From the IMG/VR virus record IMGVR_UViG_2511231170_000001: DNA of 23,325 nucleotides. One strand, 5' to 3'. Of the stretch, positions 14,268 to 14,340 are shown in pieces. The translations under genes and the position numbers were made by a program. Source of the stretch: a virus. Its lineage: Duplodnaviria; Heunggongvirae; Uroviricota; Caudoviricetes. The notes below the pieces were generated by a model that saw only the letters and a list, made by a program, of their open reading frames with translations, was not told where the DNA came from and did no database searches. Each line of letters begins with the position of its first letter. Positions within the stretch are counted from its first letter, which is position 1.

Positions 14268-14340
14268 CCGCCGCCCCGTAACGGGCCATAATTCCAGGAA
14301 GGACCTGACGACACCAGGCTATCAGAGCGATGGGGGCACA

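What the first reader, a model, noticed from the sequence alone, without database searches (positions are those of the whole stretch)
14268..14287. Inverted cosN half-copy immediately after the small-terminase stop codon
CCGCCGCCCCGTAACGGGCC is the reverse complement of GGCCCGTTACGGGGCGGCGG, matching 16-18 nt of the cosN core in opposite orientation about 690 bp downstream of the functional cos. It could be a second terminase recognition element or a remnant of a rearrangement.
Basis: seen in the sequence. Interest (0 to 1): 0.45.

Follow-up and report, generated by a model that had tools for sequence, protein, structure and literature searches.

The report
Truncated relic of inverted second cos
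The short inverted match to the DNA-packaging cut site is real, but it is the stump of a second, oppositely oriented packaging site that related E. coli phage-satellite islands carry intact, so it is most likely an inert relic, not a working signal.

Summary
A 17-nt perfect core (13571-13587 / 14269-14285) lies inside a 37-nt inverted repeat, with no matches expected by chance. The repeat covers cosQ, the 23-nt spacer and the first 8 bp of the cohesive-end sequence.

The window holds an E. coli Gram-negative PICI-type satellite. Its packaging region reads cosQ-cosN-cosB, Nu1-like terS, then a 93-aa ORF. Related islands, including the model island EcCICFT073, carry a complete second cos site ("cos2") at exactly this position and in inverted orientation. 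It sits between terS (or rppA) and the 93-aa ORF.

In the window a blunt 182-bp deletion runs from one base after the terS stop codon into cosN2. It removes cohesive-end bp 9-12, the right nick flank, I2 and all of cosB2.

About 74 of 5426 complete E. coli genomes share this junction, while about 477 keep sequence other than this junction to its left (a complete cos2 wherever I read it).

By lambda genetics the stump lacks everything needed to initiate or terminate packaging, and its cosQ has also mutated to AGGTCCT. Published work shows cos2 is dispensable. Verdict: a decayed copy of a known element, of low interest in itself.

The surrounding comparison suggests cos2 is a captured helper-phage cos.

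The parts
13550..13556 (+). cosQ of cos1 (GGGTCCT)
   Evidence: Identical to the lambda cosQ heptamer and at the same distance from cosN.
13578..13593 (+). cosN of cos1. The cohesive-end sequence GGGCGGCGACCT is at 13580-13591. The left nick flank is CG and the right flank is TG.
   Evidence: Identical to the 12-nt lambda cohesive end. The right flank is TG instead of the usual CG in all 8 truncated-type loci read.
13594..13724 (+). I2-like segment and island-specific cosB1, with GGTTGGTG-type repeats (inverted pair 13618-13630 / 13690-13702)
   Evidence: pair I3. Lambdoid phages share only cosQ-cosN-I2, about 83 nt, with this region. The role as a TerS binding site is inferred from its position.
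13725..14267 (+). terS, a Nu1-type small terminase subunit of 180 aa
   Evidence: Pfam Phage_Nu1 E=1.2e-23 and PHROG 57 E=1.3e-52. RefSeq annotates it as terminase small subunit.
14268..14269 (.). Deletion junction (scar). 182 bp present in relatives are missing between these two bases.
   Evidence: Alignment A2. L009 positions 2269-2450 have no counterpart in the window. In the about 477 genomes without this junction, homology to the window begins exactly at 14269.
14269..14278 (-). Stump of cosN2: left nick flank CG plus cohesive-end bp 1-8 (GGGCGGCG). Bp 9-12 and the right flank are lost.
   Evidence: 11 of the 16 cosN positions are retained.
14279..14299 (-). Rest of the cosQ2-cosN2 spacer (the full spacer is 23 nt, 14277-14299, and includes the CG nick flank listed in the previous part), of the type seen at cos2 in relatives (TTCCTGGAATTATGGCCCGTTA)
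   Evidence: Identical to the cos2 spacer of EcCICFT073 and of the O157-type islands.
14300..14306 (-). cosQ2, mutated. It reads AGGTCCT where every intact cos2 examined reads GGGTCCT (base 14306 is T and is C in relatives).
   Evidence: The G-to-A change occurs in 3 of 8 truncated loci and in none of the 5 intact cos2 copies.
14307..14340 (+). Conserved leader and ribosome-binding region of the 93-aa ORF
   Evidence: Conserved across all island types aligned. No promoter, terminator or unusual RNA fold was detected.
14341..14622 (+). 93-aa ORF of unknown function (PHROG 1561). It is the conserved right-hand neighbour of cos2 in this island family.
   Evidence: PHROG 1561 E=1.1e-55. It occupies the same position after cos2 in EcCICFT073. 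There is no PDB relative.

Best explanation
The element is the truncated relic of 'cos2'. cos2 is the second, inverted cos site that EcCICFT073-like Gram-negative phage-inducible chromosomal islands carry between their packaging-specificity gene (terS here, rppA in EcCICFT073) and a conserved 93-aa ORF. In this lineage a single blunt 182-bp deletion removed cosN2 bp 9-12, the right nick flank, I2 and the R3-I1-R2-R1 array of cosB2. The deletion runs from one base past the terS stop codon into the cohesive-end sequence. What remains is cosQ2, the spacer and the left 10 bp of cosN2.

Shown: orthology with cos2, the inverted orientation, the deletion boundaries, and the distribution among genomes.

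Inferred: the stump is no longer a substrate for terminase. Packaging of this island would then run only from cos1. There the island's own Nu1-like TerS is expected to bind the island-specific cosB1 and to position a helper phage's TerL to nick cosN1, with packaging proceeding rightward through terS. That motor meets the stump only 689 bp later and from the wrong side (cosN before cosQ). The stump is also missing I2 and the second nick site, so it should be ignored.

The stump probably persists because the deletion is recent and because it abuts the leader of the 93-aa ORF.
For: 1. The inverted repeat is not a chance match: 17-nt perfect core, 37-nt arms, none in 100 shuffles.

2. O157-type and other terS islands (L008, L009, L010) have a 255-256-nt terS-to-ORF93 spacer. 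It holds a complete inverted cos: GGGTCCT, a 23-nt spacer, CG|GGGCGGCGACCT|CG, I2 and three R-like repeats in the lambda layout.

3. EcCICFT073 itself has cos1 on the + strand, then rppA, then cos2 on the - strand, then the ORF93 homologue. The window's stump matches that cos2 arm.

4. Alignment A2 places the window's gap between TAAC and CGCCGCCCC. In hundreds of genomes homology to the window starts exactly at 14269.

5. About 74 of 5426 complete E. coli genomes share the identical junction. About 477 have sequence other than this junction to the left of 14269, which was a complete cos2 in every such locus I read. 384 genomes carry the O157-type cosB2 alone.

6. According to PMC4669245 and PMC9026076, initiation needs cosN plus cosB, and nicking without cosB is greatly reduced and inaccurate. 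Termination needs cosQ, cosN and I2. The CG nick flanks and cosQ are invariant among lambda-like phages. The stump lacks cosB, I2 and one nick flank, and its cosQ is mutated.

7. cos2 is dispensable. Deleting it in EcCICFT073 did not reduce transfer and increased lambda-mediated transfer (PMC6092414).

8. Truncated islands occur at several attachment sites and on two island backbones, which is what is expected if they remain mobile.

9. No promoter, terminator or RNA-structure signal suggests another role.
Against: No experiment bears on this particular copy.

Cohesive-end bp 7-12 tolerate natural variation in lambda-like phages (PMC4669245). The loss of ACCT alone would therefore not prove inactivity. 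The argument rests on the additional loss of I2, cosB and the right CG flank.

The stump's sequence is otherwise well preserved, with 2-3 differences in about 70 nt from intact copies. That could reflect constraint as easily as recency.

The cosQ mutation is present in only 3 of 8 truncated loci sampled, which is not statistically distinguishable from the intact set.

That the island's TerS acts at cosB1 is inferred from gene order and homology. It was not tested.
Confidence: 0.8

Rival explanations
1. The stump is still a working terminase element. The retained cosQ plus left cosN half-site would bind helper TerL and be nicked on one strand, or would pause the motor, and so modulate packaging of the island or interfere with the helper.
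For: cosQ, the spacing and the left half of cosN are the parts under strongest selection in lambda-like phages (PMC4669245), and they are largely retained. The sequence is well conserved among the roughly 74 genomes with the junction.
Against: I2, cosB and the right nick flank are missing. cosQ is mutated in the window. The site is inverted relative to the only remaining initiating cos, so a motor starting at cos1 reaches cosN before cosQ. Even the intact cos2 is dispensable for transfer (PMC6092414). Other E. coli terS islands have no cos2 at all (L011-L013).
Confidence: 0.07
2. The segment is retained for a reason unrelated to packaging: it forms part of the promoter, leader or regulatory region of the downstream 93-aa ORF.
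For: The block from cosN2-left to the ORF93 start codon is conserved in about 551 genomes whatever lies to its left. The deletion removed a strong hairpin plus U-run that separates terS from ORF93 in relatives, so ORF93 is now probably co-transcribed with terS.
Against: There is no sigma-70-like promoter or terminator on the + strand, and the RNA fold is unremarkable with z = -0.98. Islands L011-L013 express the ORF93 homologue with only an 11-nt spacer and none of this sequence.
Confidence: 0.1
3. The match is a chance similarity, or a by-product of the partial two-fold symmetry of cosN.
For: cosN has 10 of 16 symmetric positions (PMC9026076), so some self-complementarity is expected.
Against: The exact 17-mer occurs only at the two sites, and none occurred in 100 shuffles. 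The arms extend to 37 nt and include cosQ. The copy is orthologous to a complete cos in relatives.
Confidence: 0.01

Closest known systems
cos2 of the E. coli PICI EcCICFT073 (Fillol-Salom et al. 2018, PMC6092414; 2019, PMC6739421)
   Same: It occupies the same position, between the packaging-specificity gene and the ORF93 homologue. It has the same inverted orientation relative to cos1, which I verified on the CFT073 chromosome. The cosQ-spacer-cosN-left arm and the flank towards ORF93 are the same.
   Different: EcCICFT073 cos2 is complete (cosQ, full cosN, I2 and a three-repeat cosB) and works as a cos on plasmids. The window's copy is cut off after cohesive-end bp 8 and has a cosQ point mutation. 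The neighbouring gene is a full Nu1-type terS, not rppA.
Bacteriophage lambda cos (cosQ-cosN-cosB)
   Same: The cosQ heptamer matches at 6 of 7 positions, the cosQ-cosN spacing is the same 23 nt, and the left nick flank and cohesive-end bp 1-8 are identical.
   Different: The stump lacks bp 9-12, the right CG flank, I2, the IHF site and R3/R2/R1. It lies on the opposite strand, abutting the 3' end of terS rather than preceding it.
SaPIbov4, a staphylococcal island reported to have two putative cos sites (cited in PMC6092414)
   Same: It is a satellite island with more than one cos-like sequence.
   Different: It belongs to an unrelated cos type and host. I made no sequence comparison, and nothing is known to me about orientation or truncation in that island.

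Membership tests
Functional lambda-type cos site | Invariant cosQ heptamer GGGTCCT upstream of cosN | tested here: not met
   The window reads AGGTCCT (14300-14306, - strand). All five intact cos2 copies and cos1 read GGGTCCT. The spacing of 23 nt is retained.
Functional lambda-type cos site | Complete 16-bp cosN: the 12-bp cohesive-end sequence flanked by CG at both nick positions | tested here: not met
   The stump reads CG|GGGCGGCGGTTA|CT, so 11 of 16 positions are retained. Bp 9-12 and the right flank are replaced by the complement of the terS stop region.
Functional lambda-type cos site | I2 segment and cosB (TerS-binding R repeats with an IHF site) at fixed distance from cosN | tested here: not met
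   The 182 bp that hold I2 and R3-I1-R2-R1 in L008-L010 are absent. terS coding sequence takes their place.
Functional lambda-type cos site | Staggered nicking by terminase and helper-dependent packaging | not testable with these tools
   This needs in vitro nicking, plasmid transfer assays or sequencing of DNA termini.
PICI cos2 (second cos of EcCICFT073-like islands) | Located between the rppA/terS gene and the conserved 93-aa ORF | tested here: met
   Gene order in the window and in CFT073.
PICI cos2 (second cos of EcCICFT073-like islands) | Inverted orientation relative to cos1 | tested here: met
   CFT073 has cos1 on the + strand at L016:2556-2570 and cos2 on the - strand at 3298-3312. 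The window has + at 13571-13587 and - at 14269-14285.
PICI cos2 (second cos of EcCICFT073-like islands) | Sequence homology of the cosQ-cosN arm and the flank towards ORF93 | tested here: met
   95-97% identity over 70-72 nt to hundreds of genomes, with homology starting at window position 14269, and alignment A2.
PICI cos2 (second cos of EcCICFT073-like islands) | Complete site that works as a cos when cloned (PMC6092414) | tested here: not met
   The site is truncated inside cosN and cosB2 is absent. Function itself was not tested.
Gram-negative PICI (phage-inducible chromosomal island) | Co-directional int, alpA and replication module followed by packaging or interference genes and a cos site, with no tail or lysis genes | tested here: met
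   Integrase, AlpA, Icd-like protein, RepA-type helicase, SSB, E-like capsid protein, D-like decoration protein, a 137-aa protein matching the C-terminus of head maturation proteases (PHROG 53; the scaffold assignment is my inference), cos and terS. Induction by a helper phage was not tested.

The most novel reading that the evidence does not exclude
The stump marks the loss of one half of a two-specificity packaging module. In this island family, cos1 carries an island-specific cosB that is read by the island's TerS or by the Rpp-TerS complex. cos2 would be a complete helper-phage cos captured in inverted orientation, which lets unmodified helper terminase package the island in the opposite direction.

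Three observations fit this reading.

1. The cosB of EcCICFT073 cos2 is almost identical to the cos of a lambdoid prophage that sits directly upstream of that prophage's terS and terL.

2. cosB2 differs between islands.

3. The two inverted cos arms bound a segment that is exchanged (terS, rppA or neither), gene-converted (cos1 of L009 and L010 carries the cos2-type spacer) and rearranged (L015).

The truncated allele would then be a lineage that has committed to its own TerS. This would answer the published open question of why some PICIs have two cos sites.
Probability: 0.3. Interest if true: 0.55.

Novelty: new member of a known kind. Interest (0 to 1): 0.27.

Why it matters
The stump matters little in itself. 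It is a decayed copy of a cos site already described in the model island EcCICFT073.

Its value is as a natural experiment. About 74 complete E. coli genomes carry islands in which cos2 has been destroyed, and these islands sit at several attachment sites. That agrees with the laboratory result that cos2 is dispensable and even mildly costly for transfer.

The comparison it prompted is more useful. It shows that cos2 is inverted, that it has a full lambda-style cosB, and that at least one cos2 type matches a real prophage cos. Together these give a testable answer to why some islands carry two cos sites.

Tried and rejected
**Structure and family searches**
- PDB sequence searches with TerS, the 93-aa ORF and the 137-aa ORF found nothing useful. 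I had wondered whether one of them was Rpp; none is. rppA in CFT073 is a different 144-aa gene that occupies the terS slot.

**Searches for more relatives**
- The genome-contig scan with a TerS alignment returned only 5 loci. All lacked an inverted cos. They showed that cos2 is not tied to terS but gave no further resolution.
- The phage collection contains no DNA-level relative of this terS. Phages share only about 83 nt of cosQ-cosN-I2 with cos1. The O157-type cosB2 matches deposited phages at only 72-80%.

**Alternative functions for the stump**
- A + strand terminator, a promoter and a structured RNA in the stump were all rejected.
- Chance similarity or cosN self-symmetry was rejected.

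**Origin of the truncated form**
- I considered that the truncated form is ancestral and the full cos2 arose by insertion. I rejected this because an insertion would have had to restore a perfect cosN from a half-site, independently for several different cosB2 types.
- I looked for microhomology at the deletion ends and found none. The junction is blunt and unambiguous.
- One endpoint lies between the two nick positions of cosN2. This is compatible with terminase cutting followed by illegitimate repair, but a single event cannot distinguish that from an ordinary deletion.

Full report
**1. The observation**

The exact inverted match to the upstream cos is 17 nt, CCCGTTACGGGGCGGCG, at 13571-13587 on the + strand and 14269-14285 on the - strand. 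These are the only two matches in the window even with two mismatches allowed, and none occurred in 100 dinucleotide-preserving shuffles.

The repeat finder extends the arms to 37 nt, 13551-13587 and 14269-14305, at 81% complementarity. The copy is therefore more than a cosN half. It contains a cosQ-like heptamer (AGGTCCT on the - strand, 14300-14306), the same 23-nt cosQ-cosN spacing as cos1, the left CG nick flank, and cohesive-end bp 1-8. Bp 9-12 read GTTA instead of ACCT. Those four bases, and everything beyond them, are simply the complement of the terS 3' end.

**2. Context**

The window is 100% identical to the chromosome of E. coli GABEEC132. Positions about 4500-15200 form a Gram-negative PICI-type satellite. 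It encodes an integrase, AlpA, an Icd-like protein, a RepA-type helicase and SSB. It also encodes a lambda E-like capsid protein, a D-like decoration protein and a 137-aa protein that matches the C-terminus of head maturation proteases. These are followed by cosQ-cosN-cosB, a 180-aa Nu1-family small terminase, and a 93-aa ORF of unknown function.

cos1 has the lambda cosQ and the lambda 12-nt cohesive end. Beyond I2 its sequence is island-specific.

**3. What relatives show**

terS islands of O157:H7 and other strains (L008, L009, L010) have a 255-256-nt spacer between terS and the ORF93 homologue, where the window has 73 nt. Read on the minus strand, that spacer is a complete cos: GGGTCCT, a 23-nt spacer, CG|GGGCGGCGACCT|CG, an I2-like segment, and three R-like repeats around an A/T-rich segment in the lambda R3-I1-R2-R1 layout. 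It ends where a phage Nu1 start codon would lie.

Alignment A2 shows that the window and L007 lack exactly L009 2269-2450, which is 182 bp. The junction TAAC|CGCCGCCCC is blunt, with no microhomology.

Other E. coli terS islands (L011-L013) have an 11-nt spacer and no second cos. The terS islands of Kosakonia, Superficieibacter, Glaciecola and Thalassotalea have none either.

**4. Link to the literature**

[quoted passage not shown] Deleting cos2 slightly increased phi80-mediated transfer and significantly increased lambda-mediated transfer. Deleting both abolished transfer (PMC6092414). [quoted passage not shown]" (PMC6739421).

I located the island on the CFT073 chromosome. cos1 is on the + strand at L016:2556-2570. 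It is followed by the 144-aa gene in the slot that terS occupies here, which I take to be rppA (c1503), at 2660-3094. cos2 follows on the minus strand at 3298-3312, and then the ORF93 homologue.

The cos2 arm and its flank towards ORF93 match the window's stump, apart from the truncation and one cosQ base. The finding is therefore a truncated orthologue of the published cos2. The text I read from the two papers does not state that cos2 is inverted. I did not see their supplementary figures.

**5. Distribution**

A 79-nt query spanning the junction matches 551 of 5426 complete E. coli genomes over at least 80% of its length. In an evenly spaced sample of the ranking, 7 of 60 rows start at query base 1, which marks the truncated junction. 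Nearly all of the other rows start at base 8, which is window position 14269.

A 58-nt junction query gives 74 genomes with full coverage. One of the 60 listed rows among these is a two-piece match spanning about 240 bp and probably carries an intact site.

The O157-type cosB2 alone is present in 384 genomes.

Eight truncated loci read in full have the identical junction and the same 689-nt cos1-to-stump offset. They lie at different chromosomal sites: next to smrA, yejO and clpS, and within an IS110-family element. They also sit on two backbones upstream of cos1. This points to a single deletion event that has since spread, and it suggests these islands are still mobile.

**6. Function of the stump (inferred)**

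The requirements of lambda-type packaging are as follows (PMC4669245, PMC9026076).
- Initiation requires cosN and cosB. Without cosB, nicking is greatly reduced and inaccurate.
- Termination requires cosQ, cosN and I2.
- cosQ and the CG dinucleotides at both nick positions show essentially no natural variation.
- Cohesive-end bp 7-12 do vary.

The stump has no cosB, no I2 and no right CG flank. In the window, L020 and L021 it also has a G-to-A change in cosQ that is not seen in any of the five intact cos2 copies examined.

It is also inverted with respect to the only remaining initiating site. A motor that starts at cos1 meets cosN before cosQ, 689 bp into the run.

I found no promoter, no + strand terminator and no unusual RNA structure in the stump.

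The best explanation is an inert relic, with a confidence of about 0.8. The residual uncertainty is that nothing was tested experimentally, and that the parts retained are the ones most conserved in phages.

**7. What the comparison suggests about cos2 itself (beyond the finding)**

- The cosN-to-R1 segment of EcCICFT073 cos2 is 93.7% identical over 190 nt to the cos of a lambdoid prophage in E. coli strain 48, and nearly perfect across cosB. That prophage cos lies between the lysis genes and the prophage's own terS and terL. cos2 therefore looks like a captured helper-phage cos, although the original papers could not match it to lambda, phi80 or phage 4.
- cosB2 differs between islands: GTCAGATCC-type repeats in L009, CATGTCG-type in L010, and CATGTCCGG-type in CFT073. 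The R3 of L010 resembles that of CFT073 phage 4.
- cos1 of L009 and L010 carries the cos2-type cosQ-cosN spacer, which suggests gene conversion between the inverted arms.
- In strain SCU-172 (L015) the segment between the arms is rearranged. The CFT-type cosB2 faces the + strand cos, a terS-type cosB1 faces the minus-strand cos, and no intact terS or rppA remains.
- In L009 the R2/R1 inverted repeat of cosB2 folds, on the terS-sense strand, into a -35 kcal/mol hairpin followed by a U-run, with z = -5.1. The window's deletion removed this terminator-like element between terS and ORF93.

These observations support a two-specificity packaging module bounded by inverted cos arms, but they do not prove it.

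**8. Verdict**

The "rearrangement remnant" reading is right, and the "second recognition element" reading applies to the ancestor, not to this copy.

The stump is a decayed instance of a known element, so I rate its interest low at 0.27. The family-level reading would be of moderate interest to specialists if confirmed.

Noticed in passing
L016:3095-3350 (EcCICFT073 cos2) and L027:2506-2692 (prophage of E. coli strain 48): The cosB of EcCICFT073 cos2 is almost identical to the cos of a lambdoid prophage (93.7% over 190 nt including cosQ-cosN). That prophage cos lies directly upstream of the prophage's terS and terL. The original papers reported no phage cosB match for this island, so cos2 may be a captured helper-type cos.
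   Followed up: partly
L015:1520-2181 (E. coli SCU-172): The segment between the two inverted cos arms is rearranged compared with CFT073 and the terS islands. CFT-type cosB2 sits next to the + strand cos, a terS-type cosB1 sits inverted next to the - strand cos, only a 23-codon rppA tail remains, and there is no terS. This is compatible with inversion between the cos arms followed by deletion.
   Followed up: partly
L009:1550-1590 and L010:1550-1590 compared with window 13550-13590: In the O157-type islands, cos1 carries the cosQ-cosN spacer otherwise typical of cos2 (TTCCTGGAATTATGGCCCGTTACG). The two arms are then identical over about 47 nt, which suggests gene conversion between the inverted cos sites.
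   Followed up: no
L009:2293-2357: In islands with an intact cos2, the R2/R1 inverted repeat of cosB2 forms a strong hairpin followed by a U-run on the terS-sense strand (-35.4 kcal/mol, z = -5.1). This is a terminator-like structure between terS and ORF93, and it is deleted in the window.
   Followed up: partly
window 13592-13593: The right nick flank of cos1 is TG, not the CG described as highly conserved in lambda-like phages. All 8 truncated-type loci share this. The O157-type and CFT073 cos1 have CG.
   Followed up: no
window 13618-13630 and 13690-13702: An inverted pair, TTTCGGGTTGGTG / CACCAACCTGAAA, together with a GGTGGTGGTGG run in cosB1. These are candidate binding repeats for the island's own TerS and are unlike the lambda R sequences.
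   Followed up: no
window about 1845-3249, 3503-4417, 15255-15485 and 15546-15734: Nested insertions. The satellite is flanked on both sides by fragments of an IS110-family element (ISEc45), and those in turn are flanked by fragments of an IS66-family transposase gene (annotation of the identical GABEEC132 region). The island appears to have integrated into an IS that had itself inserted into another IS.
   Followed up: no
window 14341-14622: The 93-aa ORF (PHROG 1561, function unknown, no PDB relative) is the constant right-hand neighbour of cos2 across the terS, rppA and cassette-less islands.
   Followed up: partly
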